A stretch of 54,476 nucleotides of DNA from a virus (Duplodnaviria; Caudoviricetes). Each line of letters begins with the position of its first letter. The first letter of the stretch is position 1. The stretch is from IMG/VR virus record IMGVR_UViG_3300030450_002076, positions 1 through 54,476 of that record. One strand, 5' to 3'. This document shows positions 24,968 through 50,036 of this stretch, one piece after another. A program made the translations under genes and the position numbers. The notes beneath the pieces are model-generated. The model saw nothing but the letters and a program-made list of their open reading frames with translations, was not told the DNA's origin and searched no databases.

Positions 24968-25705
24968 TTATTTACCTCCTTTTATTTCTTTTGGTCTTTC
25001 TGCAGCTTCCAACTTATCTTTTGAGAACCCCTGAAATACTGCTCCAGATATTTGTGTTACTTGTGTTTTGTTTTTATCTTCCATATCCATTATATCGGAT
25101 AATTTAAATAATGCTTTCAATCTTGTATCTGCCTTATCGGCTAAATCAGCTTCTCTTTTTATACCGCTGATAATATAAGTCTCATCAACTCCTAATTCTT
25201 CCATTACAGGTTTTAATTCTTCTTTCATTGCTGTCCTCACTCTTGTTGTTTTAACTAATTTACCAGCCCTCATATTTGCATAATGAGGATCATTGGTAGG
25301 AAAAGCTTTTAAATAGGCTTGCTGCACATTCATTCCAGATACAACATACCCAACAAAAAGACTTTCCTTGCTAGATAGCTGATCCCTATCATCTAACCTT
25401 TGATCTCTATCTATATTGCCTCCAATAGAGTATATGTTAACTCTTCTTGAAGCGTCCATTTTATTGTTTTCTGAGATAACAAACGTACCTGTGCAAGTGC
25501 CTACATAGTAAACTATGCGCTTCTTTCCCTTCGGTTTTTGCATCTTCCCAGAACGAATAATTTGAAGCACACAACCGTCATCTGTCTTTACCCAATCGTT
25601 AAGACGACCATCCCTCCAATCCTTCAAATAGTGTATATCTGTAGGAACTTCCTCAACAGAATCAAATACTGTGTGCTCTATATTGTTTACTTTATATATT
25701 CTCAT
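24968..25705 (-). CDS. Putative terminase small subunit
   Basis: 245 aa; C-half with F..Y...GM...QAY..A helix-turn-helix and RLKAL..L oligomerisation pattern; upstream of terL. Confidence 0.55.
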   Translation of the reverse strand: MRIYKVNNIEHTVFDSVEEVPTDIHYLKDWRDGRLNDWVKTDDGCVLQIIRSGKMQKPKGKKRIVYYVGTCTGTFVISENNKMDASRRVNIYSIGGNIDRDQRLDDRDQLSSKESLFVGYVVSGMNVQQAYLKAFPTNDPHYANMRAGKLVKTTRVRTAMKEELKPVMEELGVDETYIISGIKREADLADKADTRLKALFKLSDIMDMEDKNKTQVTQISGAVFQGFSKDKLEAAERPKEIKGGK

Positions 25706-25734
25706 AGTTCAATACCTGCCAAGGTATTGGGAAC

Positions 25735-25920
25735 TTAAGATAGTCCCAGTATCCCATCATGGCAGTATTTAATTATCATTTTAATCATTGAATTTGGAGC
25801 TTTTAAGTCTTCATCATCAATCATTAGTTTTAAACTTGACTCTTCTTCTATGTATTCCTGTATAGATTCTATTTCTTCAGTTTCTGGGTTATACTTAATT
25901 TTAAGATAGTATTCTTTCAT
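25735..25920 (-). CDS. Hypothetical protein (first gene of late arm)
   Basis: 61 aa; GGAGGAG RBS. Confidence 0.65.
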   Translation of the reverse strand: MKEYYLKIKYNPETEEIESIQEYIEEESSLKLMIDDEDLKAPNSMIKMIIKYCHDGILGLS

Positions 25921-26166
25921 AGCTCCTCCGCATATAGGTATCCCCTGAGAGTCCGTGAACTCTTTTTTTAAAGACTTTAACCTTAAACTTCGTTAGAGCC
26001 AGTCATTTTCTCCCATACTCTAATTTATATTAAGGCAATTTTTATCAACTATTGGGGACAATCCTGAACTCTATTTGAGGGGCAACCCAACTTCTGATCC
26101 AATAAGCAGAACCATTACAGGGGTACTTACTGGATGATAGTTAAAACTTCTAACTGCTGATACCGA

Positions 26167-26195
26167 AATATAATATAGTGAAAAAGTAAATACAA
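26167..26195 (-). promoter_or_regulatory. Sigma70-like promoter for the structural arm
   Basis: TTGTAT-17 nt-TATATT on the minus strand. Confidence 0.5.
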
Positions 26196-26339
26196 GAAGT
26201 TTCAAAAATTGTGTAATTTTAGTGCTCCCTCTTTTATATATTGGTACCTCCCTATCGGGAGATTTTCGCAAAGCGAATTACGTTATAAATGATTTCATTT
26301 ATTTTGATTATAGATTAATTTTTAATTAAGGAGAAACTA

Positions 26340-26612
26340 ATGAGTAAATTAATGGCAATAGTAAAGAAACTTCAAGCTACGTATGTTACAAGAATGTTAA
26401 AGGCTCCTACTAAAGGTAGTGACGCTTGGAACTTTGGAATTAAGTCAGCTACTAAGAGTGAGCTACGTAAAGCATATATGACTGACTTACGTAACATAGT
26501 TGAAGTAGCAGTACAGAATAATGATCAAGATGTTATAGATTTCTGTAAAGGTTGTGTAGAAGATGATGAGAGTGTTGAGGACTTACAAGCACAAATTAAA
26601 GGAGCTAAGTAG
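26340..26612 (+). CDS. Hypothetical protein (first early gene)
   Basis: 90 aa; AAGGAG RBS. Confidence 0.75.
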   Translation: MSKLMAIVKKLQATYVTRMLKAPTKGSDAWNFGIKSATKSELRKAYMTDLRNIVEVAVQNNDQDVIDFCKGCVEDDESVEDLQAQIKGAK

Positions 26613-26743
26613 AAATACTTAGTTCTTTTAGTTAATAACAGTTAGTTGTTGATATGTACAAGTGACTATGAATGTAGACCACAGTACACACACATCATGC
26701 ACGAGTATATATATACCAACTTATACCACACTTAGAAGGAGTG

Positions 26744-26920
26744 ATGATGATTAAGAAAACTATATATAAACACAGTATCAGAGAGTTGATAGGTAGTAAT
26801 AACCCTATGTATATGATAGGTGGTTATTTAGTAATAGTATTACATGCAGGGTTAATGGCAAGTACATTTGTTACAGTAAGATATTGTTTAGAGGTATGCT
26901 TCTCAGTCTTCAAGCCTTAG
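26744..26920 (+). CDS. Small membrane protein (58 aa, not in ORF track)
   Basis: AAGGAG RBS; MMIKKTIYKHSIRELIGSNNPMYMIGGYLVIVLHAGLMASTFVTVRYCLEVCFSVFKP. Confidence 0.55.
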   Translation: MMIKKTIYKHSIRELIGSNNPMYMIGGYLVIVLHAGLMASTFVTVRYCLEVCFSVFKP

Positions 26921-27118
26921 TAACAGATTTACTGCTTCTACCCTGAAGTGACCTCGGGACTAGGTTGTAGAGTTATGAACTACCGAGGGTGTCAGTGTGC
27001 TGGCATAATCTAGTCCTACCATTTAAAGACTATGTAAGTGAATAAATTATCAAGATATTGGCAGTCATTATGACGTAAGAATTAACCAAGCCACTTATAT
27101 AGCAAATAAAGTATCAAT

Positions 27119-27193
27119 AGCGGAGACAAGCCTGGGTAGGCTAGCCTGGCTCATAACCAGGAAGCATTGTTAGTTCGAGTCTAACCTCCGCAA
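27119..27193 (+). tRNA. tRNA with CAT anticodon (Met, initiator-like; atypical)
   Basis: Acceptor GCGGAG/CTCCGC with A1:A72 mismatch; D stem AGCC/GGCT; anticodon arm CCTGG-CTCATAA-CCAGG; T arm GTTAG-TTCGAGT-CTAAC; CCA not encoded. Confidence 0.85.
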
Positions 27194-27216
27194 CTAAAAT
27201 AAGAAGGAGAAGTATA

Positions 27217-27360
27217 ATGTGGGATATAAATGTAGGTATAGAGCTAATGTTAATGATGTTAGCAATTCCAGTAGGTATACTAGTACTATCATACTTAATA
27301 GTTAGTTTGTTAGTAGTTGTAGAAGATTATAGAATAAAGAGACAAGAACGTAAATTTTAA
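27217..27360 (+). CDS. Small single-TM membrane protein (47 aa, not in ORF track)
   Basis: AAGGAG RBS; MWDINVGIELMLMMLAIPVGILVLSYLIVSLLVVVEDYRIKRQERKF. Confidence 0.65.
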   Translation: MWDINVGIELMLMMLAIPVGILVLSYLIVSLLVVVEDYRIKRQERKF

Positions 27361-27380
27361 CTAATTAAGGAGGACACACA

Positions 27381-27521
27381 ATGTCAAATGTATTATTAGA
27401 TATTGATTGGGGTAAAGCAAAGAAGTATTTAACGAAATATGACCTTGAAGACATTCGGAGTCATAATCGTTGTAGTATTAAAACTCTTGAAGTATTAGAT
27501 AGAGTTTATAGGAAATTGTAG
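27381..27521 (+). CDS. Small hypothetical protein (46 aa, not in ORF track)
   Basis: AAGGAGG RBS; MSNVLLDIDWGKAKKYLTKYDLEDIRSHNRCSIKTLEVLDRVYRKL. Confidence 0.6.
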   Translation: MSNVLLDIDWGKAKKYLTKYDLEDIRSHNRCSIKTLEVLDRVYRKL

Positions 27522-28246
27522 CAATACAATCGGCAGTATCATGTCGTTAGGATAAGCATAGCAATATGCCCAAAGCTATATGTTATACGAGTAACATTGG
27601 CGCCAGCAATGGTCCACAGATACAAGCCTCTATGCGTACGATCTCGAAGGCAAAGAGATTGTGGTGTCACTAAGATGGTAATTAGTGTGAGTATGGTAAC
27701 ATACAATAAGATAAGGGGTAGGAATTTAGTCTGAGTGTGAGAGCGAGGGCGTGTTCCAGTATTATGGTTAATCCTTTAGTGATAAAGGGCGACACCAGAA
27801 ATACCATAGTTTATAATATCTCAGTTATAAATTGTAGTTGTAAGCGTAGTATTTACTATCTTAATAGGATAGCAAGCTACTCCGTGAGCGACTTATGACA
27901 TGTGCCGTTATCGATTAACAAAAAAGATAACTAGGGGTTAGTAGCCTCATGAAAAACAGCCACGGCGATTAGGAGCAAAGGGTTCTAGTGCTTAATTCTC
28001 TTGAAATACCAGAGAGCATACATAATCTCAAGTTATGTGTGTGTTGTGACAAAAGTACTGTAAGGGTGGGCACATTCTTATAGATATAAGTAGTCGCTGA
28101 GATAACCTAATCGATAAGAGTGATAGTCTATAACTATTGAACCTGCTAGGATACTATTCGCAAGGGTAGTGGATAAGGACAAAACCAACCTGAGGGGAGG
28201 AACATAGTCCGAAAGTCTTAGCTAATAGAGTATAATCTCAACTCTA
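27515..28246 (+). ncRNA. Large structured ncRNA, GOLLD-like (~730 nt)
   Basis: No ORF of 60 aa or more; GC higher than flanks; at least six GNRA-capped hairpins on + (27515, 27556, 27603, 27691, 27773, 28152); three hairpins with TCTCA loops; near a tRNA. Confidence 0.72.
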
Positions 28247-28275
28247 CTAATTTTCACACAAATTTTGGAGGTATT

Positions 28276-28734
28276 ATGAGTAAAGTAATATTATGTGATG
28301 TAGATGGTACAATAGCCCTTATGATGGGTAAAAGAACACCATTTGAATATATTAAGGCTGATCAAGATGAGCCTAATATGCCAGTTATTAATGCAGTTAA
28401 ACAACTAGCTGAAATTAATAAATATGATATAGTATTTTTATCAGCCAGAGAGAATGTAACATTTGCTACTGGTAGAAGTAAATACGATAATGCATATGAT
28501 CTAACAAAAGATTGGATTATAAGGCATGTATATGATAGACAAGCAGAACCTCTTGATATCAACCTTATATTAAGACAAAAAGGTGATTGGAGAACTGATT
28601 GGGTAGTAAAGTATGAGATTTATAGAAAGAATGCCTGGGATGTTGCATATGTATTTGATGACAGAGATCAGGTAGTTAAAATGTGGAGAGATATAGGTTT
28701 AACCTGTTTTCAGGTAGCCAATGGTAATTTCTAG
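28276..28734 (+). CDS. HAD-family phosphatase, T4 PNK (PseT) 3'-phosphatase-domain-like, stand-alone
   Basis: ILCDVDGTIA (DxDxT), FLSAR, R..D..VK, VFDDRDQVVKMWR, FQVA; no kinase P-loop. Confidence 0.88.
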   Translation: MSKVILCDVDGTIALMMGKRTPFEYIKADQDEPNMPVINAVKQLAEINKYDIVFLSARENVTFATGRSKYDNAYDLTKDWIIRHVYDRQAEPLDINLILRQKGDWRTDWVVKYEIYRKNAWDVAYVFDDRDQVVKMWRDIGLTCFQVANGNF

Positions 28735-28760
28735 ACTTAAGCTCAACGTGCATGGGCAAT

Positions 28761-28989
28761 GTGGAGAGTATAATAGGATGATTACCTTGCGCCTCAATAA
28801 TAACAGTAGTTATACTCACTATCCACGGGGGACGACATAGCTGACCACTTAACAGGCTCGAAAGTAACAGATGGTTCGCCCCAAAGAATTATATGTGATT
28901 AGCGTCACATTGATAGTTAACCTTATGGACCGATTTAACGGGAATTGATGACGTCTATACATTCCGTCTGCATTCTATGTGATAAGGTT
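28761..28989 (+). ncRNA. Putative cluster of structured RNA elements
   Basis: Four consecutive stems: 28761-28826, 28827-28882, 28893-28910, 28919-28989; no ORF. Confidence 0.45.
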
Positions 28990-29226
28990 TAACAGGGTAG
29001 ATAAAAAATAAAAGAAATAAAGCTTAGGGCTGTTACGTATAATCCGAAGCCAAAGAGTATTTTAAATAATATTTGTAGTAATACAAGCTGTAATCGCAGA
29101 CACTCACAGAGAATTTATAATGATTTCTGCTGCGGTTAAGGTGAATTACAGTTATGTAATATATATATTGTGTGGATATACCCTTCATTACTACACCACA
29201 CACTAGTTTATATAAGGAGGAGCGCA

Positions 29227-29382
29227 ATGATAGCGATAGGAAATGATGAACCATGTCCTTTCTGTAAAGGTAAAGATAAATTTGTAAATGATCCAGATGT
29301 TAATTTTATAGATCATTTGATGAAGGAACACCCAGCAGAGATGACTGAGTATCTATTTAAAGGAAAGAACATCGGTTTATAA
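29227..29382 (+). CDS. Small C2H2 zinc-finger-like protein (start MIAIGNDE)
   Basis: AAGGAGGAG RBS; CPFC...HLMKEH. Confidence 0.65.
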   Translation: MIAIGNDEPCPFCKGKDKFVNDPDVNFIDHLMKEHPAEMTEYLFKGKNIGL

Positions 29383-29491
29383 GACTTGTCTGGCATATGC
29401 AAGGTCGGGTCTACAAAGCGCATTGCGGGATCTGAGGTGGTAGAACCTCTATTTGAAAAGACAATATATGCCAACAATTCAAGGAGATAGT

Positions 29492-29665
29492 ATGAAATAT
29501 AATAGTATAGAAGATGATTTAGATAAATTAGTAGATATGTATTGGCAGCAAGAAAAAGATCATTGGGAAGAAGCTAATAATCCCGATGACCATATATTTC
29601 ACGCTTTTAACAATGTTAAGAACTATTTAATAGGGAGGAAAAATGGAAATAGAGATTCCCTGTGA
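29492..29665 (+). CDS. Hypothetical protein (start MKYNSIEDD)
   Basis: AAGGAG RBS before ATG at 29492. Confidence 0.65.
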   Translation: MKYNSIEDDLDKLVDMYWQQEKDHWEEANNPDDHIFHAFNNVKNYLIGRKNGNRDSL

Positions 29666-29834
29666 TGCAATAGAAGATTATTTAAAATGTATGGAGGAAA
29701 TAAATATGTGGATAAGTGAATGTTGTGATGCACATCCTTTATATGATTTACATATAGAAGATGAATTAACACCAATAGGTATATGTTCTCATTGTAGAGA
29801 TAATACTGGATTTGAGGAGTATGAAGATGAGTAA
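29643..29834 (+). CDS. Small zinc-ribbon protein
   Basis: SECCDA...GICSHCRD; GGAGG RBS. Confidence 0.65.
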   Translation: MEIEIPCDAIEDYLKCMEEINMWISECCDAHPLYDLHIEDELTPIGICSHCRDNTGFEEYEDE

Positions 29835-30105
29835 AATGAAACAACATGTGCAAAATTGGTTAGATGATATAGGGTATTCTTTAGGTTATCATGATAGTAT
29901 GATGCCTGATATAGCTCATTTAGACATTGTAAAAGAAAATGCAATACAAGTCTGGGAGTATTTTGGGTATAAAACTGAAAGAGGATTCTATTCACACACT
30001 GGTAAAGTCAAACCTTATAGATCTATTAAAGAAGTAATAGAACAATATGGTATGGACAAGAAGAAATATTGGGAAAAGGATGAACTTGGAGGTATAATTC
30101 TATGA
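29827..30105 (+). CDS. Hypothetical protein (start MSKMKQHV)
   Basis: GAGGAG RBS; overlaps upstream stop. Confidence 0.6.
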   Translation: MSKMKQHVQNWLDDIGYSLGYHDSMMPDIAHLDIVKENAIQVWEYFGYKTERGFYSHTGKVKPYRSIKEVIEQYGMDKKKYWEKDELGGIIL

Positions 30106-30263
30106 AATGTAGGTCATGTGAGGAAGAAGCAAAAGTTTTAGAAGATAAAGCCCCATATTGTGTTAAATGTTATAGAGTTGAAATATTAAAGGAGAAAAAT
30201 GGAAACAAAGATTACAGAGAATCAAAGAAAGTATATGGCAAGACGAGTAAACGAAGAGTTTGA
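30102..30263 (+). CDS. Small CxxC..CxxC zinc-finger protein (53 aa, not in ORF track)
   Basis: GGAGG RBS; MKCRSCEEEAKVLEDKAPYCVKCYRVE...; ATGA overlap. Confidence 0.55.
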   Translation: MKCRSCEEEAKVLEDKAPYCVKCYRVEILKEKNGNKDYRESKKVYGKTSKRRV

Positions 30264-41705: not shown

Positions 41706-44700
41706 CTATTTCTTTACTAATCCACAGTTAAACATTTCATCAAAAACTCTTTTTGTCTTACCTTGAGATACACTGCCTTCTACAATTGATCTAGATTGTT
41801 TTGTATATTCTTTTAAACTACTTAAGTCAAATGAATCAAGCATAGATGGTAGCTTTAATGTTAAACCTTTAAAATGCTTATCACCTCCATAAAGAGCGTA
41901 CAAACTATTACCTCTTAATGCTTTTCTAGCATCACCCATAGATGAAATATCCCAATATTTCCCATCACTATCTCTTGTTCCTTGTAGAGACTTGTTAGCA
42001 AACTTAGTTATATTAGCCTCCATATTAGATATATGTGCCAAATAACTCATTGGATTATATAAACCAGTAGATTCTATTGATCTTCTAACATGACTCATTT
42101 GGTCTATAAATTTACCAAATTCTTCATCTTGTCCAAATATCTTAAAAAACCTATGATAGAAGTCTAAAGATTCTTCATACTGTAATTTAAAATTATCAAC
42201 AGGTTTGGTTTGCATTGACCATCTATAGCTTTTATATGATTCGAAGGCGTTTTGTAAATTGGCTCCAAATTTAGGGAATGATAATTGTTCCATAGTTATA
42301 TCTGTATCACCTATTTTACCTGAAACAGGGTCAGTAGAGATTAATCTATGGTCTTTATTATAGTAATGCCCATAAACACCTCTTATATCAGCAAGAGCTT
42401 TTAATGCTCTACCCATATCAGGATCATCTGCTGATGCTTTAGCCATAAATCTTAAAATTCTTTCAAATCGTTTACTAGGTTTATAGGGCATAGCTACAGC
42501 AGTACCAGCAAATATACCCACTCTATTATTAGCAGCGCTTTGATTTGCATAGTTGTATAGAAAATGCAATCCATGGTCTTTAACACCTTTCATTAAAGAC
42601 ATTTCAATAATATCATTAGCAGTAGCCATATCAGGCAAGTTGCCTAACCATTTTCTCATTCTATTGTTTAATAAAGTCTTTGCATCATATCTTAGAGTAG
42701 TACCTAATGTGTTTAAGTCACCAAAAATTCTTCTTTCAAACTGATGCAATGTTTCTATATCCCTTTTCATTTTAGGAGTTGTTCCACTATGTCGTAATAT
42801 TTCATTTAATGTAGCCATCTCAGACTGAGTTTTAATATATTCAGGCTTTCCATCAATAGGAACAACTTCTATGAAACTATCTTTTAAATTTTCAATACTA
42901 GGTTGTTTTGCATATGCAGGATTAGCTTTTAATAACTCAGAATTTTTTAATTCAATTTCTTTTATCTGATCATTAATCTTATCCTTAAGTTCGTTTTTTC
43001 TCCTAACTGATATCGGTTGTTTATCTATGTATCCCCACTTCTTTTTTAGAAACTTAATAGTGTTTAGTCCATCATTTGTTGATTTAATAAAGCTCATTAC
43101 TTGAGAACTAAATTCAGAGAAATAATCAGGATCACTAACAAATCTACTCATAGATTGTTCCATCATTTTTACAGCATCACCAGTCAAACCTTCGTAATGT
43201 CTTTGTCTAGTAGGGTCAGCATCTCTGATTTGCCACATCAATCTATCAAACATTTGACCATGAGAACCAAACTCTGCTTCCTGTTTCATATTTGCTATTA
43301 AACCATCTTCAAAAGGATTTTGAGTAGGATTTGCATATACATCGCTTTCTTCTATATCAGCTTGTTTTTTCCATTGAGATTTTTTCTTAACTTTTTGCTC
43401 TGGTCTAAAGTAGCTTTCAAATACTCTACTATTACCATATCTCCTCTTTAATGCTGCGAAAGTATTCCATTGAGGGTTATCTAAATGAGTAAAGAAATCG
43501 TCAGTAAAATCTAAAATATCGTCATATGAAGGCTTTTTTCCTCTACCCTGTGCATCATATACATCAGTCCCTAAATTGAGCAATCTATTGTATTTTTGGA
43601 GCTGAAGATCAATTAAAGCTATGTCTTCAGGCATTAAATTCTCTTCTTTTTTAGTTTTTAGATTAAATCTTCTAAATAATCTTGGTCTTTCTGTAGATTT
43701 TCCTTGAGCCATTTTTCTTAAGAATCCAATGCTATAATTTTCACTTGTAGTTGATGGGTTGTTAGGGTCATTCATTCTTGTAAAGAGTAAGTTATGTCTA
43801 GCTTCTTTTTTCATACCAAACAAACTACCGTCAACTTCTTTTGCTGCATCTATAATATACTGACCTTCAACAACTGATCTGTGACGCCAATCATTAGTAT
43901 CATAATCCATAGTAACTACCCATTCACCACTATTTTTACCATCAACATCCTTACTTTCCATTATAACTCGCTGACCTTCATGTACTTTTGTAGTTTTATC
44001 AGCTAACCATCCTAATGCACGTGGTATTTTTTGAACTACACCTATATTTCCTCTAAATGTAGTTGAATTAGCCATAGAAGCAAGAAAGTTTTGATTTAAA
44101 TTTCTGTCCGTAAAACCTTTTCCACCAGTCAAATACAAACCTTGAGTCTTAGCTTTAAATTTACTGACATCAATACCTTGCATAAAGCTCCATGTATTCA
44201 CCCTATCTATATGGTCAAACATAGTTTTGCTATGAGCCCAGTAATAATCATTTTTATCTACATCATAATCACCTTCAAATATATTTAAAACATCTAATTT
44301 ACTTGCTATCATAGAGTTTCCATAATCCTTATGAAGGAAATCTTTTAAACCTACAATCATTTTATCATTAGGTCTAGTGCTAGGATAACGAGTAGTAATA
44401 ATAGCTACTTGGTAACTTCCGTTCCATTGGTCTTTTATTATATCATGAAGCTCACCTAAATTTTTTGATAACATTAAATCATAAGATTTTTCATCCTTAT
44501 AAATGTCCTTTAATTCTAGTAATTTATTATCATCTTTGTTTACAATTCTAACCTGAAAATCGTCTCTAGCTCCAGTAAAATTACTAACTTTTGAATTTCT
44601 TTCATGATCTGGGAGAAAAACTTCTCCATATTGTTTAATCTCACCTTGATCGTAGATAGTTCCTCTAGCTTGTAAGTTTGGGTCTAAAGATTGTATAAGA

Positions 44701-47700
44701 ACAGCCTTACCTCCAAATCGTCTACCTCCTATTCTAGCAGATTGATTAATAATTGGATCAATTAACTTTTTATAAAACTGAGATAAAACCGCTTTCTCAC
44801 TTATATGAGATGGGTCTCCAAATTGTGAATAAGTTTTTAAAGCACCTAAAGCTTGTGTTGCTCCACTATTAGACTGCACCATAGATTCTAACGATTGATT
44901 GTCTAAAGTCTCATCATTAAAGAAAGCTTGTCTTTTTAAAGGATCCCCGTACAAATCTCGAAAATCATTTAATGCATTTGTTAATCTGTTTCCATAAAGC
45001 TCACCAAACATTAATTGAGCTTCTGCGCTAGTTAAATAATTATAAGAACTGATAGATAGCTTAGCTACATCTTTATGATGTATTCTATCTTGCTTTATAA
45101 CAATGGCATCATTAGGAATTTCTCTATAGCCAGAGCTTTTTAAAGGGTCAGCACTAAGAACATCATTCCAACCACTATCAAAACCTTTCATAGCGGAAGT
45201 AGTAGTAAGCATATCAGATTCACTTTTGCTAAAGTAATCATTTAAAAATTTATCATAAACGAAAACTGTTTTTCCATATACGACTACATCTCCATCTGAT
45301 TGAATAATAGGTTTAAAGAGTTCAGTTTCACCACTTGCTGCTCTACCATATTTTAATTGTAAATATCTCATATATTCTTTAGAGATATAAGTGATACTAT
45401 CATAACCACTTTCATCAGCTCTATCATGCAGCTCTCTTTTCCACCACGCTTCAAATTCAGCATCTGAATTAAAAGATTCTCTTACTGCCTGCTTAACTGA
45501 AGAACCATTATTACCATCTTTTTCATCCCAAGCACTAATACGAGTAGTCCCTCTATTTTCAAACTTATTAATAATTTCTACATCATCTGCATTCCTAGCA
45601 GATTGTTTAGTTATTTCAGAAATACCTCTTTTAAAATTTGGAGTATGAAGCAAGTTTAATCTTTTTGTTAAGTTGTCTACATCTTTTTGCTGAGATAAAT
45701 AAGGTAAAAAATCATCAGTCTTTCTTCCTGAGCCTGCAACAAATCTTTCATAAACTATTGTTCTTAATGCCATTTCATGCGCAGATGTTTTAGTAGTAGG
45801 ATTATCAATCATTCTATTATATCTTGATAGCATATCTTGGTAATGAACCCCGTTATCAATCTTACTTAAATTATCTTTATAATGATCTATCATAGATTTA
45901 TAAGTCTTGGCTATATTAATTAATTCAGTATTTTTAACAACTAAAGGTTGCATAGACTCAGATATTCTAAATATTCTACCACCATTTGTTATGCCATCTC
46001 CCATAGTTTCAGAGCCAAAATCAAGGTCTGTACCAAATTCTCTTACTGGTATATTCCCTGCTACATCTAAAGAAGTATCAAACTCATCTAGTTGAGCTTT
46101 TAATATAGATTTCTCATCTCCACTTAAATAATTAGTTTCAGCTTCAAATAAACTAAATTGTCTTTTGTGATACTTACCTCTATTGTCGTAAGTAAATAAA
46201 TCTGTATTACCTTGAGCTAATATGACTGATAATTCCATCTCATCAAATAAATCAAACATTTTAGTTTTTTGCATTCTTACTCTTCTAGCAACAGGTTTAC
46301 CTAAATTATATTGAACTAATAATCTTTCTTGAGAATTAGCTTTACCTATCAATAAACTAGTCAAGTGATCTTTTGCTTCATTAAAAGATAAAGCATGTTC
46401 AGGATTATTTAAATCAAAATTTACTATTCTTTTATTGTTAGCATCAGGCAATCTCATATCTCTTTTAATTAAGTCATCAAGATAAGTATCTCCTCCAGTT
46501 TTAATTCCATCGTTTATAGAATTTAAAGCTATTGCTTGAGTTTCTGCATCCGCATACTCCACAACACCTGATGTACTAAAATATCTTTTGAAAAATTCAT
46601 CTTGAGATAAACTATTTTTATCGGTAGGTGCTTCATATACAGCTTGTATCATATCATTTACTTCATCTTGTGCAGCTTTCTTTTGAGCATCAATAGTATT
46701 AAAGTCCATACCTAATTGTTGAAATTCATATTTAATTAAAGCTGCCTTCGTAACAGTTTTACCATTTAAAGTGACTTCTTCAGATAAGCCATCTTCATTA
46801 AATTTATACTTTATATAACCTTCTGCACGATCTTTTTGAATAATCTCATTACTTTCCAACATGCTAATTAAATGCTTAGCGTATGTAGGATTTGCTGTTA
46901 ATATATTATCAAGTGTGTTTTTAAAACCTTGATGGTCTTTAGTAGAAACAGACATAAAATCTGTAATTACTCTTCGAGCGCTTATTTGCGCATCTACAGT
47001 AGCATAATCAAGTATGTTGTCTATTAAATTCATAGTACTTTTATCTACTAAAACTTTTTCATCTCCAAGAGAAAACAGTCTACCTGAAGGAGTATCGCTT
47101 CTACCTTCTAAATCTTTAGCCCAAGTATTATAACGAGAAACTTTTAAATTAAAATCAGTATCTGTTGCATCGATAGGTGCATCTATTAATTTTAATTGCC
47201 ATCCACGATTCATTCCTGAACTTTTTGCAACTAAATCAGCATCTTTTACTGATCTCATAGAAGTCACTGCTGTAACATCCTCTATAGAAACATTGCTTTG
47301 CCTTATAATATCTTGTAAAATATAATTCTGTGTAAATGCAGCCCATTTGCCCATTGCAGGACCTCTAGTCATCATTCCTTGCTTTCCTAAATATGATTGC
47401 AGTTCTCTTATTTGCTGAACATCTACTTCAATAGGCTTTGTATATTCATACCCACTATAATCATTTTTAGCTCCTAATAAATCAATAAAGTTATTAAGGA
47501 ATAATCTTTCACCAGAAACATCATCTGCTCCCTGAATAATAAATTGTTTTTCTTTAGCGTGAGGAATAAGTCTATCTAATCCATTATCATCTACTTGGAA
47601 TATACCAGCTCTCCTTGCAAATTGTATCATTTCCTGATGGCTTTGATGAATAGGAGATAATAAATCACTAACACGTTTAGCAGAATCTTTTGCTCTATTT

Positions 47701-50036
47701 GTTTGCATGATATAAACCATATCATCTAAATGTTTATTAACATCAAAAGAGAAATCACTTCTTGCTTCTAATCCTGAATTAATGTTTTCTTCAAATCTAT
47801 CTATTACTAGTTTAAGCTTGTCATAACCTTCTAAAGTGCTTATTGTGTATGTTTTAGATTTATCATTAGGATCTAATTTAATTGGGTCTAAAGCATCCAT
47901 ATCCGTAAAAGCTTTAATAATCTTATTGGCTTTATTAATAGTGCCTTGAAGTTCTTTGTTAGCAGCATTACCACTTAAACCCTCTATTAACTGACCATCC
48001 ATAGCTAATTTTTTTAATGATGGAGTACCATCATCTAAGTCTAATGTAGACGCTAGAATCATTTCTGGAAACTCACCCATATGAAGTTCATCTATATTTA
48101 AATCAGTTCTAATACCTAATTCTGGTATAGCTTTTAGCTCACTTAAAGTAACTTTCATATTTCTATCAAATATTGTAGATGCACTTTCATTTATATTATC
48201 AAACACTCTAAAGGCATCTTGTCCATCTTTAATTTTACCGCCATCTATACCTTCCCATGTAGCATCTGTTAATATTTTTTGTATTTCTCCTGCATCCTTT
48301 TCACTAATTCTGCTTAATTCTTTTGTGTGTTTTCTTTGACCACCAAGAAGTCTGTAAAAAGATCTAAATACTTCATAGTCTCCAGTCATTTGGTCAGCAA
48401 TTAAAACACTTCTTTGACCTTCATCTATATCTGATTTACTTACATCATAATCATCTGTAATAATATTCTTTTCAATAGCCAAATCTCTTGCTTTCTTTAA
48501 AGTTTCATTATGACTAATTGGATTTTGATGCAAACTATTATAAGGATTGAATGTAGGTATATCTATTAGGTTTTTAGTTTGAACACCTAAAACACGTAAG
48601 TTCTTACGAATATCATTTACTCTATCATTTAAATCCCAATCTTTAGGAGTTCCTCTTCTTTGTAGGAAGGCACCTATTAAAAATGTAGGTAACATGTCAT
48701 TGACAGTTATTTCCTGATCATTGACTGCAATATCAAATAAACTACGAGCATTAAATATAGTACCACCCATAGTCATTCTAAACCAATTTTTCTTTAAAGA
48801 TTCTGCTTCTTCTTTAACAGCCCATTTAACTAATGAACGACCATGTTTCCTGGTTTGTTCATCTAAACCTTTTCTAACAACCTCTTCACCTACCTTGTCA
48901 CCGTATTCAGCAATAGCTTTAGTTGGATTAATTAAATCTAAATCATATTGTTTACCATTAAGATTAACTGGTATTATAGTGTCTTCGCCTTCAACTTTAC
49001 TTCTTTTTAACTGATCACCTAGATTCCTAGCTCTAGACATAACTTGATTGAGAGTTTTTCCTTTAGTTACGCTTGTTCTAAAAGAACCCTTAATACCATC
49101 TATTAAATCATTTTTAAAGGATGCAGATTTACCAATAGGTTTCAACCAACCTAATGCACCAAATCCCATACCAATAGCACCACCCCATATAGGCTCAGTC
49201 CAATTATATGAATAGTCCATATTATGAACTTTTTTATTAATTGTAGTATGCATTGCTTCTCTAAAGGTATCAATAGTTAAAAACGTTACTATTTCATCTG
49301 CCATATATCCTATGTATTTAGCTTTACTAGGGTCACCTTTTGCTAAATAAAGCTCTTTAAAACTATTAATAGGTCTCTTTGTAAGGTCTGTTTTTAAGAC
49401 ATTCTTGACAATATCAAATTCTTTTTTACCAATCAATCCTTTTGCTGCATAATCTCCTACAACTTCATCTATCACTTTTCCAGATTTTCTACCAAAAGCT
49501 CCCGCTAGATCTGCTCCCATTTGACCTCTTCTAGCAAGATTAATATAACTTTGACCTACGTCTTCAGCTATCTCTCTTTTTAATCCAGCATCTACGGCAT
49601 TTTTAACACTTTTTCTAGCAACGCTTTCTGCACTACCTAATACAAATTTTTCACCACCTGCTTTGATTAATTGTTCTGCTACTCCACTTTTCTTGACAGC
49701 CATACTAATAGCTTTACGACCTAACTTTAAAGGTGCGCCAGCTGCATAACCTGCAATACCACCGATACCTGCAGACATTTGTCCTAAGAAAGTTTCAGGA
49801 GCCATGTCTTGTTGAAATTCTTGACCTCCAATCATTCCAGGAACACCAAATAATCCTTCATCCATAAATGCCCATAAACCAGAACCTACTAATTCATAGA
49901 GCATACTATTATTTCTTTCGACTTCTATATCATCAGGGGTAGTCCAATCTGCATATATAGGACCTTCTTGTGTGGGTATGTAGTTCTGATTACTACCTGC
50001 GCCTTGCAAGTATTGTAAATATGGGTTTTCTGGCAT
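41706..50036 (-). CDS. Putative virion-packaged two-barrel (DPBB) DNA-dependent RNA polymerase
   Basis: 2776 aa; RYP (44382-44390) then EGDYDVDK (DxDxD at 44256-44270); upstream DSITYIS..FKP..GKT..SAMK (45186-45401); located in the structural arm. Confidence 0.75.
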   Translation of the reverse strand: MPENPYLQYLQGAGSNQNYIPTQEGPIYADWTTPDDIEVERNNSMLYELVGSGLWAFMDEGLFGVPGMIGGQEFQQDMAPETFLGQMSAGIGGIAGYAAGAPLKLGRKAISMAVKKSGVAEQLIKAGGEKFVLGSAESVARKSVKNAVDAGLKREIAEDVGQSYINLARRGQMGADLAGAFGRKSGKVIDEVVGDYAAKGLIGKKEFDIVKNVLKTDLTKRPINSFKELYLAKGDPSKAKYIGYMADEIVTFLTIDTFREAMHTTINKKVHNMDYSYNWTEPIWGGAIGMGFGALGWLKPIGKSASFKNDLIDGIKGSFRTSVTKGKTLNQVMSRARNLGDQLKRSKVEGEDTIIPVNLNGKQYDLDLINPTKAIAEYGDKVGEEVVRKGLDEQTRKHGRSLVKWAVKEEAESLKKNWFRMTMGGTIFNARSLFDIAVNDQEITVNDMLPTFLIGAFLQRRGTPKDWDLNDRVNDIRKNLRVLGVQTKNLIDIPTFNPYNSLHQNPISHNETLKKARDLAIEKNIITDDYDVSKSDIDEGQRSVLIADQMTGDYEVFRSFYRLLGGQRKHTKELSRISEKDAGEIQKILTDATWEGIDGGKIKDGQDAFRVFDNINESASTIFDRNMKVTLSELKAIPELGIRTDLNIDELHMGEFPEMILASTLDLDDGTPSLKKLAMDGQLIEGLSGNAANKELQGTINKANKIIKAFTDMDALDPIKLDPNDKSKTYTISTLEGYDKLKLVIDRFEENINSGLEARSDFSFDVNKHLDDMVYIMQTNRAKDSAKRVSDLLSPIHQSHQEMIQFARRAGIFQVDDNGLDRLIPHAKEKQFIIQGADDVSGERLFLNNFIDLLGAKNDYSGYEYTKPIEVDVQQIRELQSYLGKQGMMTRGPAMGKWAAFTQNYILQDIIRQSNVSIEDVTAVTSMRSVKDADLVAKSSGMNRGWQLKLIDAPIDATDTDFNLKVSRYNTWAKDLEGRSDTPSGRLFSLGDEKVLVDKSTMNLIDNILDYATVDAQISARRVITDFMSVSTKDHQGFKNTLDNILTANPTYAKHLISMLESNEIIQKDRAEGYIKYKFNEDGLSEEVTLNGKTVTKAALIKYEFQQLGMDFNTIDAQKKAAQDEVNDMIQAVYEAPTDKNSLSQDEFFKRYFSTSGVVEYADAETQAIALNSINDGIKTGGDTYLDDLIKRDMRLPDANNKRIVNFDLNNPEHALSFNEAKDHLTSLLIGKANSQERLLVQYNLGKPVARRVRMQKTKMFDLFDEMELSVILAQGNTDLFTYDNRGKYHKRQFSLFEAETNYLSGDEKSILKAQLDEFDTSLDVAGNIPVREFGTDLDFGSETMGDGITNGGRIFRISESMQPLVVKNTELINIAKTYKSMIDHYKDNLSKIDNGVHYQDMLSRYNRMIDNPTTKTSAHEMALRTIVYERFVAGSGRKTDDFLPYLSQQKDVDNLTKRLNLLHTPNFKRGISEITKQSARNADDVEIINKFENRGTTRISAWDEKDGNNGSSVKQAVRESFNSDAEFEAWWKRELHDRADESGYDSITYISKEYMRYLQLKYGRAASGETELFKPIIQSDGDVVVYGKTVFVYDKFLNDYFSKSESDMLTTTSAMKGFDSGWNDVLSADPLKSSGYREIPNDAIVIKQDRIHHKDVAKLSISSYNYLTSAEAQLMFGELYGNRLTNALNDFRDLYGDPLKRQAFFNDETLDNQSLESMVQSNSGATQALGALKTYSQFGDPSHISEKAVLSQFYKKLIDPIINQSARIGGRRFGGKAVLIQSLDPNLQARGTIYDQGEIKQYGEVFLPDHERNSKVSNFTGARDDFQVRIVNKDDNKLLELKDIYKDEKSYDLMLSKNLGELHDIIKDQWNGSYQVAIITTRYPSTRPNDKMIVGLKDFLHKDYGNSMIASKLDVLNIFEGDYDVDKNDYYWAHSKTMFDHIDRVNTWSFMQGIDVSKFKAKTQGLYLTGGKGFTDRNLNQNFLASMANSTTFRGNIGVVQKIPRALGWLADKTTKVHEGQRVIMESKDVDGKNSGEWVVTMDYDTNDWRHRSVVEGQYIIDAAKEVDGSLFGMKKEARHNLLFTRMNDPNNPSTTSENYSIGFLRKMAQGKSTERPRLFRRFNLKTKKEENLMPEDIALIDLQLQKYNRLLNLGTDVYDAQGRGKKPSYDDILDFTDDFFTHLDNPQWNTFAALKRRYGNSRVFESYFRPEQKVKKKSQWKKQADIEESDVYANPTQNPFEDGLIANMKQEAEFGSHGQMFDRLMWQIRDADPTRQRHYEGLTGDAVKMMEQSMSRFVSDPDYFSEFSSQVMSFIKSTNDGLNTIKFLKKKWGYIDKQPISVRRKNELKDKINDQIKEIELKNSELLKANPAYAKQPSIENLKDSFIEVVPIDGKPEYIKTQSEMATLNEILRHSGTTPKMKRDIETLHQFERRIFGDLNTLGTTLRYDAKTLLNNRMRKWLGNLPDMATANDIIEMSLMKGVKDHGLHFLYNYANQSAANNRVGIFAGTAVAMPYKPSKRFERILRFMAKASADDPDMGRALKALADIRGVYGHYYNKDHRLISTDPVSGKIGDTDITMEQLSFPKFGANLQNAFESYKSYRWSMQTKPVDNFKLQYEESLDFYHRFFKIFGQDEEFGKFIDQMSHVRRSIESTGLYNPMSYLAHISNMEANITKFANKSLQGTRDSDGKYWDISSMGDARKALRGNSLYALYGGDKHFKGLTLKLPSMLDSFDLSSLKEYTKQSRSIVEGSVSQGKTKRVFDEMFNCGLVKK

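What the first reader, a model, noticed from the sequence alone, without database searches (positions are those of the whole stretch)
26930..29450. Early 'RNA island': tRNA, giant ncRNA, several small structured RNAs and an RNA end-healing phosphatase
Seen: over ~2.5 kb at the start of the early arm most DNA is non-coding and structured, all on +. The only sizeable protein is a stand-alone PNK-type HAD phosphatase starting 30 nt after the giant RNA. Established: the T4 PNK phosphatase domain removes 2',3'-cyclic and 3' phosphates from RNA cut by anticodon nucleases or ribozymes. Inference: a candidate undescribed system in which an injected RNAP immediately makes a set of structured RNAs (decoys for anti-phage RNases/toxins, or self-processing units) and the phosphatase matures their 3' ends. 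No kinase or RNA ligase partner is evident.
Basis: inference. Interest (0 to 1): 0.8.

Follow-up and report, generated by a model that had tools for sequence, protein, structure and literature searches.

The report
GOLLD RNA with phosphatase companion gene
The early region of an uncultured marine phage carries a known giant cage-forming RNA (GOLLD) between a tRNA gene and an RNA-end phosphatase gene that stays beside it in related phages, which gives a first candidate protein partner for an RNA whose function is unknown.

Summary
About 64% of 26930-29450 is non-coding and everything lies on the + strand.

**What the parts are**
- The "giant ncRNA" is not new. It is a GOLLD RNA (Rfam RF02032, 137 bits, E 2.8e-37), about 725 nt at 27522-28250.
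- tRNA-Met lies upstream.
- A stand-alone T4-Pnkp-type HAD 3'-phosphatase starts 31 nt downstream.
- Two further stretches (28735-28890 and 28885-29215) are conserved RNA motifs with compensatory base changes and no Rfam match.

**Is the phosphatase linked to the RNA?**
- Within this uncultured phage group, 10 of 15 phosphatase lineages have a GOLLD 28-526 nt upstream on the same strand. The phosphatases form one clade, and other genes around the pair have been shuffled.
- The link is not obligate. Three related phages have GOLLD only and five have the phosphatase only.
- The link is absent elsewhere. No GOLLD-bearing record outside the group has an adjacent phosphatase.

**What was not supported**
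- The small RNAs move independently of GOLLD, so the island is not shown to be one machine.
- No kinase, RNA ligase, known ribozyme or RNA polymerase was found.

**Verdict:** a known RNA family in a new, lineage-conserved pairing with an end-healing phosphatase. Interest is moderate.

The parts
26706..26727 (+). Conserved promoter-like 20-mer (TATATATACCAACTTATACC) at the head of the first early transcription unit
   Evidence: The pattern has 3 distinct sites in the window against 0.01 expected. The same motif lies 1.0-1.5 kb after the 245-aa gene in 14 of 21 relatives examined. Its role as a promoter is inferred.
27007..27106 (+). 100-nt conserved non-coding block of unknown role
   Evidence: nhmmer E 3e-17 in L174 and L167. 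It is nearly identical there while the flanks are unrelated, and in those relatives it follows a tRNA-like sequence. There is no folding signal (z -0.01).
27119..27194 (+). tRNA-Met (anticodon CAU), elongator-like with G1-C72 paired
   Evidence: ARAGORN. Rfam tRNA 31.4 bits with the alignment shown. No CCA is encoded.
27217..27360 (+). 47-aa ORF with ribosome-binding site, hydrophobic; coding status unproven
   Evidence: No homologue in relatives by tblastn.
27381..27521 (+). 46-aa small protein of a family conserved in relatives
   Evidence: A profile of three members finds it in 8 loci, including the window.
27522..28250 (+). GOLLD RNA: 5' domain 27522-27836 and conserved 3' domain 27837-28244
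   Evidence: RF02032 137 bits, E 2.8e-37, model 1-416. The full length aligns to relatives' GOLLDs at E 1e-112 to 1e-131, and those score 172-176 bits, over the cut-off. In RNA library X3 a 754-nt contig covers 27548-28298 without a difference.
28276..28734 (+). Stand-alone HAD 3'-phosphatase of the T4 polynucleotide kinase-phosphatase type (152 aa)
   Evidence: PF25109 E 8e-38. phrog_505 matches profile positions 162-295 only. It aligns to T4 Pnkp residues 160-301 (1LTQ, 5UJ0) with DVDGT conserved. It is 42% identical to the C-terminal part of T4-like PseT.
28735..28890 (+). Structured RNA motif 'nc2a' (two helices seen), not in Rfam
   Evidence: A pattern scan found 25 IMG/VR stretches. In the 21-sequence alignment 99% of cells are paired. 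27 cells show double changes against 8.3 +/- 2.4 in shuffles, reached by 0 of 500 shuffles.
28885..29215 (+). Structured RNA 'nc2b', ending in a conserved 7-bp hairpin (29172-29206), not in Rfam
   Evidence: Conserved in L162, L174 and L168 and in 5 IMG/VR stretches. 40 pairs are predicted and 14 have compensatory changes in 5 sequences. RNA-library contigs cover 28895-29206 (X3) and 28937-29206 (X4).
29227..29382 (+). 51-aa zinc-ribbon-like small protein conserved in relatives
   Evidence: 74% identity in L089, 68% in L171 and 45% in L222. Only weak Pfam zinc-ribbon hits, all under their cut-offs.
29383..29491 (+). Candidate structured RNA 'nc3'
   Evidence: One homologue, in L162. 26 predicted pairs, 3 compensatory, none broken. 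MFE z -1.94.

Best explanation
**What it is (shown).** The giant RNA is a GOLLD RNA of about 725 nt. GOLLD is a known phage RNA family that self-assembles into cage-like homo-oligomers and whose function is unknown. Here it forms the middle of a module, tRNA-Met, then GOLLD, then a stand-alone T4-Pnkp-type 3'-phosphatase. The module sits at the head of the + strand (replication-gene) arm of an uncultured phage of about 54 kb. Within this phage group the phosphatase is a persistent though dispensable companion of GOLLD.

**How it probably works (inferred).**
- The module is transcribed as one early transcript from a conserved promoter-like 20-mer at 26706-26727.
- Host RNases cut that transcript into tRNA, GOLLD and mRNA.
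- GOLLD then assembles into a cage as its solved relatives do.
- The phosphatase removes 3'-phosphate or 2',3'-cyclic phosphate from RNA ends. These ends could arise on this RNA set or on tRNAs cut by host nucleases.
- The resulting 3'-OH ends can be used by host enzymes such as the CCA-adding enzyme or exonucleases. This fits a phage that encodes no kinase and no ligase.

**The other non-coding stretches** (28735-28890, 28885-29215, 29383-29491) are separate structured RNA modules that shuffle independently. They are not parts of one machine.
For: **Identity**
- GOLLD.
- tRNA.
- Phosphatase.

**Linkage**
- A scan with a profile of 8 group phosphatases kept 80 of 419 loci. GOLLD was found in 11 of the 80.
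- At 90% protein identity there are 15 phosphatase clusters in the group, counting the window and loci from earlier calls. Ten have GOLLD 28-526 nt upstream on the same strand.
- The 15 form one clade (support 97/94). GOLLD-linked members lie on both sides of the basal split, and at least 3 changes of state are needed.
- The pair persists although small ORFs have been inserted between the two genes in L260, L262, L264 and L266, and although the flanking genes differ.
- It is also present in L331, whose 245-aa marker protein is only 31% identical to the window's.
- GOLLD is rare among relatives found without regard to it: 7 of 65 records searched, with 15 not held.

**tRNA.** tRNA-Met abuts the GOLLD 5' end in L260, L261, L262 and L272. 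The solved env-38 GOLLD is also described as downstream of Met-tRNA (passages read).

**Expression.** Contigs from four RNA libraries, from two samples of one study, cover GOLLD.

**No repair partners.** No RNA-ligase, AAA_33 kinase or RtcB match in the genome.
Against: **The pair is separable.**
- L164 is at least 97% identical to L161 upstream and in GOLLD, yet has other ORFs where L161 has the phosphatase.
- L231 and L257 have GOLLD with no phosphatase in 3.6 and 5 kb downstream.
- Five phosphatase lineages lack GOLLD.

**Outside the group there is no link.**
- 0 of 31 viral records with phosphatase relatives hold GOLLD.
- Of 117 GOLLD-bearing viral records searched, 6 hold HAD_PNKP over the cut-off. 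Three are relatives. In the other three it lies 12, 41 and 122 kb away.
- In the sample that is unbiased for both genes (relatives found through the 245-aa protein) the counts are small: both 2, GOLLD only 3, phosphatase only 4, neither 39 clusters.

**Other limits.**
- A single ancestral juxtaposition followed by inheritance could explain the pattern without any shared function.
- Without a kinase and a ligase the classical tRNA-repair route is incomplete.
- The substrate (RNA, DNA or mononucleotide) was not tested.
- Co-transcription, processing and cage formation are inferred, not shown.
Confidence: 0.55

Rival explanations
1. Historical linkage only. GOLLD and the phosphatase were joined once in an ancestor of this phage group, inside a hot spot for accessory early genes, and are inherited together by physical proximity. 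The phosphatase serves another purpose, such as DNA 3'-phosphate repair, nucleotide salvage or a defence-related task, and has nothing to do with the RNAs.
For: - The phosphatases are monophyletic, so one acquisition is enough.
- Both genes occur alone in close relatives.
- There is no adjacency in non-relatives: the three other GOLLD-bearing records with the phosphatase hold it 12-122 kb away.
- 0 of 31 other phosphatase-bearing records hold GOLLD.
- The early arm is strongly mosaic.
Against: The pairing survives deep divergence: phosphatase identity falls to 39% and the marker protein to 31%. It also survives insertions between the two genes and replacement of the flanking genes. GOLLD is present in about 11% of relatives overall but in 10 of 15 phosphatase lineages.
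Confidence: 0.33
2. An injected RNA polymerase immediately makes the whole set of structured RNAs as decoys or self-processing units, and the phosphatase matures their 3' ends.
For: - The position is right: the region follows a conserved promoter-like motif at the start of the early arm.
- At least three non-coding stretches are structured.
- The phosphatase is linked to GOLLD.
Against: - The small RNA modules occur without GOLLD or the phosphatase, and in a different order, in L162, L174, L168 and L166.
- No known ribozyme family matches.
- No polymerase signature was found. The 2776-aa ORF has no match in PHROGs, Pfam, PDB sequences or the Atlas.
- PF00940 found nothing, but its control genomes were also silent, so that search says little.
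Confidence: 0.08
3. The small conserved structured elements (28735-28890, 28885-29215, 29383-29491) are processing or stabilising signals between genes of the early polycistronic transcript. They would work like the RNase III sites of the T7 early operon (a comparison recalled, not tested here), rather than as free-standing functional RNAs.
For: - They lie between early genes on the coding strand.
- They change position and order among relatives.
- The genes that follow them differ, and in many loci a ribosome-binding site comes within about 10-20 nt.
- Two RNA-library contigs from one sample stop at 29206, at the foot of the conserved terminal hairpin.
Against: - At 150 and 330 nt, with conserved loop sequences, they are larger and more elaborate than simple cleavage hairpins.
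- In the window one follows the other with no gene between them.
- Contigs cannot show RNA ends, as the output itself states.
Confidence: 0.4
4. GOLLD acts in cis as a giant 5' leader that controls translation of the phosphatase gene.
For: Only 28-31 nt separate the GOLLD 3' end from the start codon in the window and in L092, on the same strand. One RNA-library contig runs from GOLLD 22 nt into the ORF.
Against: Whole ORFs lie between the two genes in L260, L262, L264 and L266. More than 100 GOLLD loci have other downstream genes. Solved GOLLDs form cages as free RNAs (passages read).
Confidence: 0.04

Closest known systems
GOLLD RNA (Rfam RF02032), including the solved env-38 14-mer and the Streptococcus agalactiae 12-mer cages
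   Same: End-to-end match to the covariance model. Two-domain build with a variable 5' part and a conserved 3' part. Phage context. tRNA-Met upstream, as described for env-38 (passages read). Found in RNA libraries.
   Different: - It scores 13 bits under Rfam's gathering score, and one hairpin of the model (about positions 232-247) is missing.
- It is about 725 nt against 833 nt for env-38 (length from the passage read).
- It lies in the first early operon of an uncultured marine phage, not in a tRNA array. There is only one tRNA.
- It has a conserved protein-coding companion.
T4 polynucleotide kinase-phosphatase (PseT/Pnkp), phosphatase domain (PDB 1LTQ, 5UJ0)
   Same: HAD fold family PF25109. 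It aligns to residues 160-301 of T4 Pnkp, with DVDGT and the aligned Arg, Ser, Asp and Lys positions conserved. About 42% identity.
   Different: There is no kinase domain: the protein is only 152 aa. No RNA ligase was found in the genome. The T4-style heal-and-seal pathway therefore cannot run on phage genes alone.
ROOL RNA and phage tRNA islands
   Same: A large ornate phage RNA near tRNA genes, with suspected co-transcription (passage read).
   Different: No ROOL match here. There is a single tRNA rather than an array.
RNase III processing hairpins of the T7 early operon (recalled, not tested)
   Same: Structured elements between genes on the coding strand of an early polycistronic unit.
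   Different: The elements here are 150-330 nt with several helices and conserved loops. Cleavage is not shown.

Membership tests
GOLLD RNA (RF02032) | Significant end-to-end match to the family covariance model (sequence plus secondary structure of the conserved 3' domain) | tested here: met
   137 bits, E 2.8e-37, model positions 1-416 of 416. The score is 13 bits under the curators' gathering score of 150, so the default scan is silent.
GOLLD RNA (RF02032) | Homology to RNAs that pass the curated threshold | tested here: met
   The window's 27522-28249 aligns over its full length to L164, L089 and L161 at E 2e-131, 8e-119 and 2e-112. L092 (the same contig as L161) and L089 score 176.1 and 172.4 bits.
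GOLLD RNA (RF02032) | Two-domain build: a less conserved 5' domain before the conserved 3' domain, total about 700-830 nt | tested here: met
   The 315-nt 5' part is conserved among relatives only. The total is about 725 nt. The Rfam model does not cover the 5' domain, so its fold was not tested.
GOLLD RNA (RF02032) | Phage or prophage context close to tRNA genes | tested here: met
   The record is a virus record. tRNA-Met lies 327 nt upstream and directly abuts GOLLD in L260, L261, L262 and L272.
GOLLD RNA (RF02032) | Self-assembly into a closed homo-oligomeric cage | not testable with these tools
   Known for env-38 and S. agalactiae GOLLD (passages read). This needs in-vitro transcription and cryo-EM or native gels.
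T4 Pnkp-type HAD phosphatase (PF25109) | Match to the family profile over the curated cut-off | tested here: met
   130.2 bits against a cut-off of 27.6, E 8e-38, profile positions 2-143 of 143.
T4 Pnkp-type HAD phosphatase (PF25109) | DxDxT nucleophile motif and the other active-site residues of T4 Pnkp (their roles are recalled from the literature) | tested here: met
   D8-V-D10-G-T12 aligns with T4 165-169. R20, S56, R58, D108, K112, D128 and D129 align with identical T4 residues. Most are invariant in the 8 group members aligned.
Bifunctional polynucleotide kinase-phosphatase (T4 PseT) | N-terminal P-loop 5'-kinase domain | tested here: not met
   The ORF is 152 aa and covers only T4 residues 160-301. 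No AAA_33 match anywhere in the genome, and the control genomes all rang.
T4-type RNA heal-and-seal repair system | An RNA ligase partner (Rnl1, Rnl2 or RtcB) | tested here: not met
   No PF09414 or PF01139 match, with positive controls. PF09511 also found nothing, but its controls were silent, so that search is uninformative.
T4 Pnkp-type HAD phosphatase (PF25109) | Hydrolysis of 3'-phosphate and 2',3'-cyclic phosphate ends of polynucleotides | not testable with these tools
   Needs an enzyme assay.
Self-cleaving ribozymes (Rfam families) | Match to any known ribozyme model in the island | tested here: not met
   Only GOLLD and tRNA at E<=1 in 25700-30200. At E<=10 there are only chance-level hits to unrelated families.
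Bacterial initiator tRNA-fMet | Unpaired 1:72 position and three consecutive G-C pairs in the anticodon stem (features recalled) | tested here: not met
   The alignment shows G1 paired with C72 and an anticodon stem CCUGG/CCAGG. It is an elongator-type Met tRNA, or possibly Ile2. The two cannot be told apart here.

The most novel reading that the evidence does not exclude
The Pnkp-type phosphatase is a dedicated partner of GOLLD. In this reading GOLLD, or the tRNA made with it, carries or produces 2',3'-cyclic-phosphate ends. These could come from self-cleavage out of the early transcript, or from host ribotoxins that the cage attracts as a decoy. The phosphatase would reset those ends to 3'-OH. 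That would be the first protein partner and the first biochemical handle for GOLLD. In two relatives (L222, L202) unrelated ORF-free stretches of 780-890 nt fill the same slot, between tRNA-Met and the phosphatase. They could be further, undescribed giant RNAs served by the same enzyme.
Probability: 0.2. Interest if true: 0.85.

Novelty: new variant of a known kind. Interest (0 to 1): 0.55.

Why it matters
GOLLD is among the largest non-ribosomal bacterial and phage RNAs, and cage structures of it have been solved. A March 2026 review still gives only speculation about its function, and the passages I read named no protein partner.

- **A testable lead.** A gene that stays next to GOLLD through deep divergence in one phage group is something the bench can address. 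Does the chemistry of RNA 3' ends matter for GOLLD, for its tRNA, or for the phage's struggle with RNA-cutting host defences?
- **Under-counting.** Divergent GOLLDs fall just under Rfam's threshold, so marine phages may be under-counted as GOLLD carriers.
- **New motifs.** The region adds at least two conserved structured RNA motifs that Rfam 15 does not hold.

Tried and rejected
**Searches that found nothing**
- blastn of 26600-29700 against 50,697 phage records: no match. The nearest cultured terminase is 25% identical, so no annotated relative could be used.
- Rfam at the gathering threshold: no match at all.
- No match for the small elements at E<=10.
- sigma-70 promoters and intrinsic terminators: 18 promoter-like sites against 21.5 +/- 5.3 expected, and 0 terminators against 1.8 expected. 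This is no signal.
- The 23-nt hairpin-end motif has a single copy in the window.
- 2776-aa ORF: no PHROG, Pfam, PDB-sequence or Atlas match. PF00940 found nothing, with silent controls. The 'injected polymerase' idea could be neither supported nor excluded.

**Folding energies**
- The small pieces do not differ from shuffles.
- The ORF-free stretches in L222 and L202 gave z -4.6 and -4.8, and the window's GOLLD gave -5.3.
- My coding controls also reached -4.4 and -4.8 in 2 of 4 cases.
- I therefore reject z-scores as evidence for structure in this genome.

**Neighbours of GOLLD and of the phosphatase**
- Pfam tally of 105 ORFs downstream of GOLLD in IMG/VR: HAD_PNKP 3 (all relatives), Metallophos 4, ClpP 4, SmpB 2. 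There is no general RNA-repair neighbour.
- A small 'LVSKI' ORF family lies next to some phosphatases. It also occurs without the phosphatase and is absent from the window, so it is not a partner.

**RNA libraries**
- No contig covers 28342-28675, inside the phosphatase ORF. Contigs cannot show absence, so nothing is concluded.
- Contig depths were not used to rank genes.

**Tools**
- Complex prediction, structure prediction and the large protein searches were not used, because the protein's family and fold are already clear.
Full report
**1. What the window is**

The window is a whole IMG/VR virus record of 54,476 bp, estimated 98% complete.
- Structural and packaging genes (terminase, portal) run on the - strand up to about 25.9 kb.
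- A + strand arm follows from about 26.3 kb with small genes, a Sak4-like annealing protein and a primase-helicase. GC skew turns at about 26 kb.
- The phage is uncultured. blastn of the region against 50,697 phage records found nothing, and the nearest cultured terminase is 25% identical.
- The DNA and RNA runs that hold the stretch are labelled marine metagenome.

**2.

- **tRNA.** tRNA-Met(CAU) lies at 27119-27194.
- **Giant RNA.** In E-value mode Rfam matches 27837-28244 to the complete GOLLD model (RF02032, positions 1-416, 137 bits, E 2.8e-37).
  - The score is 13 bits below the gathering score, so the default scan listed nothing.
  - The model covers only the conserved 3' domain.
  - The 315 nt before it (27522-27836) are conserved in the GOLLD RNAs of related phages (E 1e-47 to 1e-54).
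  - The whole 27522-28249 aligns to those RNAs at E 1e-112 to 1e-131. Two of them pass Rfam's threshold at 176 and 172 bits.
  - The RNA is therefore a GOLLD of about 725 nt.
- **Phosphatase.** The ORF 28276-28734 begins 31 nt after the Rfam match.
  - It matches Pfam HAD_PNKP (E 8e-38).
  - It matches the C-terminal half of the PHROG polynucleotide-kinase profile.
  - It aligns to residues 160-301 of T4 Pnkp (1LTQ, 5UJ0), with DVDGT and the other aligned active-site positions conserved.
- **Coding share.** Four ORFs with ribosome-binding sites cover 900 of the 2521 nt of the finding, so about 64% is non-coding.
  - One of them (27381-27521) belongs to a small-protein family present in relatives.
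  - Another (29227-29382) is 45-74% identical in three relatives.

**3. The small RNAs**

- **Single-sequence folding** of the remaining non-coding pieces is no better than shuffles (z +0.16 to -1.94), and Rfam has no match. Comparison with other sequences gives more.
- **28735-28890 (nc2a).**
  - A pattern scan found 25 IMG/VR stretches.
  - With the window that makes 26 sequences, of which 23 are distinct. Two truncated ones were dropped and 21 were aligned.
  - Two helices are predicted. 99% of cells pair. 27 cells show changes on both sides against 8.3 +/- 2.4 in shuffles, a value reached by 0 of 500 shuffles. Partners slid by 1-3 columns pair in only 32-55% of cells.
  - My search pattern partly fixed the second helix. 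The first helix, where all five pairs covary, is independent of the pattern.
- **28885-29215 (nc2b).** It has four distinct relatives. 40 pairs are predicted and 14 have compensatory changes.
- **29383-29491 (nc3).** It has one relative. Of 26 predicted pairs, 3 are compensatory and none is broken.
- **27007-27106.** This block is nearly identical in two relatives amid unrelated flanks and shows no structure.
- **These modules are not tied to GOLLD or the phosphatase.**
  - They occur in another order and in relatives that lack both (L162, L174, L168, L166).
  - Different genes follow them.
  - They may be free small RNAs or processing and stability signals of the early transcript. I cannot tell which.

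**4. Transcription**

- **Promoter-like motif.** A 20-nt motif sits at 26706-26727, with a variant at 29160-29182. That is 3 distinct sites in the window against 0.01 expected. It recurs 1.0-1.5 kb after the 245-aa gene in 14 of 21 relatives examined, always ahead of the tRNA or GOLLD.
- **No standard signals.** sigma-70-like sites and terminators are not enriched.
- **RNA libraries.** Four RNA libraries from two samples of one study hold contigs that cover GOLLD. The longest is 754 nt, covers 27548-28298 and has no differences. Two of the libraries (X3, X4) hold contigs over 28895/28937-29206. Contigs show presence only. They do not show ends, strand or level.
- **Status.** Co-transcription from the motif and processing by host RNases are inferences.
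- **Polymerase.** Nothing identifies an RNA polymerase in the genome. The 2776-aa ORF has no match in four searches.

**5. Is the phosphatase linked to the RNAs?**

*First results argued against a link.*
- 0 of 31 viral records holding relatives of the phosphatase hold GOLLD.
- Among 119 GOLLD loci from a pattern scan, 104 have at least 600 nt downstream. Only three have the phosphatase, and all three are relatives of this phage.
- Of 117 GOLLD-bearing records searched whole (two were not held), six hold HAD_PNKP over the cut-off. Three are those relatives. In the other three it lies 12, 41 and 122 kb from GOLLD.
- Among 105 ORFs just downstream of GOLLD, no RNA-repair family stands out.

*Inside the phage group the picture differs.*
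- Relatives found through the 245-aa protein, without regard to either gene, rarely hold GOLLD: 7 of 65 records searched, with 15 not held.
- A scan with a profile of eight group phosphatases kept 80 of 419 loci, and 11 of the 80 hold GOLLD.
- I clustered the group's phosphatases at 90% identity, adding the window and loci from earlier calls. That gives 15 clusters.
  - Ten have a GOLLD 28-526 nt upstream on the same strand: the window, L260/L261, L272, L262, L264/L265, L266, L089, L154/L192/L124, L331 and L092.
  - Five do not: L171, L270, L202, L168 and L222/L223.
- The 15 form one supported clade (97/94). GOLLD-linked members lie on both sides of the basal split, and at least three changes of state are needed.
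- The pair has outlasted several kinds of change:
  - insertion of one or two small ORFs between the two genes (L260, L262, L264, L266);
  - replacement of the flanking genes;
  - divergence of the marker protein down to 31% identity in L331.
- In the window's nearest phosphatase relatives, tRNA-Met abuts the 5' end of GOLLD. The solved env-38 GOLLD is described the same way.

*Against an obligate link.*
- L164 is at least 97% identical to L161 up to the end of GOLLD, yet carries other ORFs in place of the phosphatase.
- L231 and L257 hold GOLLD without the phosphatase.
- Five lineages keep the phosphatase without GOLLD.
- In the unbiased sample the counts are small: both 2, GOLLD only 3, phosphatase only 4, neither 39 clusters.

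**6. Mechanism**

*Shown:* the identities of GOLLD, the tRNA and the phosphatase, their order and strand, the conserved pairing within one phage group, and the presence of GOLLD in RNA libraries.

*From the literature* (passages read):
- GOLLD RNAs form closed 12- to 14-mer cages.
- They lie near tRNAs.
- They rise in level during phage lysis.
- Their function is unknown.

*Inferred:*
- One early transcript is processed into tRNA, GOLLD and mRNA.
- The phosphatase works on RNA 3'-phosphate or 2',3'-cyclic-phosphate ends.
- No kinase, RNA ligase or RtcB is encoded (one search is uninformative). The likeliest use is therefore one that needs only a 3'-OH, such as letting the host CCA-adding enzyme or exonucleases act on cut RNAs.

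I put a shared function of GOLLD and the phosphatase at about 45%. I put pure historical linkage at about a third.

**7. Novelty**

- The giant RNA is a new, somewhat divergent member of a known family.
- The pairing with a Pnkp-type phosphatase appears to be unreported.
  - Full-text searches for GOLLD with 'polynucleotide kinase' returned only unrelated papers.
  - Searches for GOLLD with 'phosphatase' and 'phage' returned two listings of one phage-satellite study, which I did not open.
  - The cryo-EM preprint's main text contains neither 'phosphatase' nor 'kinase'.
- nc2a and nc2b are absent from Rfam 15.

**8. A loose end**

- In L222 and L202 an ORF-free stretch of 776 and about 890 nt fills the slot between a tRNA-Met(-like) gene and the phosphatase. 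Neither has an Rfam match at E<=10.
- Their folding z-scores (-4.6 and -4.8) look like GOLLD's (-5.3).
- Two of my four coding controls scored the same, so this does not show structure.

Noticed in passing
L222:1267-2042 (- strand) and L202:4972-5860 (- strand): In two relatives without GOLLD, an ORF-free stretch of 776 and about 890 nt (GC 0.36-0.38) fills the slot between a tRNA-Met(-like) gene and the phosphatase. There is no Rfam match at E<=10. The folding z-scores look strong, but coding controls matched them. These could be other large RNAs.
   Followed up: partly
window 25921-26339: The divergent intergenic region between the - and + arms is conserved at the nucleotide level in most of the relatives fetched (nhmmer E down to 1e-63). 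It may hold the origin or divergent promoters.
   Followed up: no
L186 (tRNA at locus 648-737, - strand) and L257:1050-1144: ARAGORN calls a 90-95-nt tRNA with anticodon UUA ('tRNA-Stop') directly upstream of GOLLD in two relatives. This could be a suppressor-like tRNA or a tRNA-like element belonging to the GOLLD 5' flank.
   Followed up: no
L089:1343-1423: A tRNA-like element lies between GOLLD and the phosphatase in one relative. It matches only the ends of the tmRNA model (41.9 bits, under the cut-off of 47).
   Followed up: no
L264:4474-4550: ARAGORN reports a tRNA with a four-base anticodon (tata) right after the phosphatase gene. In L089 a normal tRNA-Met sits at the same place.
   Followed up: no
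window 41706-50036 (- strand): A 2776-aa ORF has no match in PHROGs, Pfam, PDB sequences or the ESM Atlas.
   Followed up: partly
IMG/VR GOLLD loci L034-L152: Among 105 ORFs just downstream of GOLLD, 4 are calcineurin-like metallophosphoesterases and 2 are SmpB. Metallophosphoesterases are another phosphoesterase class next to GOLLD in unrelated phages.
   Followed up: no
window 27007-27106: A 100-nt block is nearly identical in L174 and L167 although the flanks are unrelated. In those relatives it follows a tRNA-like sequence, whereas in the window it precedes the tRNA. This suggests recent exchange of a small module.
   Followed up: partly
L171, L202, L168, L154, L266 and L270, beside the phosphatase gene: A small ORF family (44-68 aa, motif 'LVSKI') lies next to the phosphatase in several relatives. 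It also occurs without the phosphatase and is absent from the window.
   Followed up: partly
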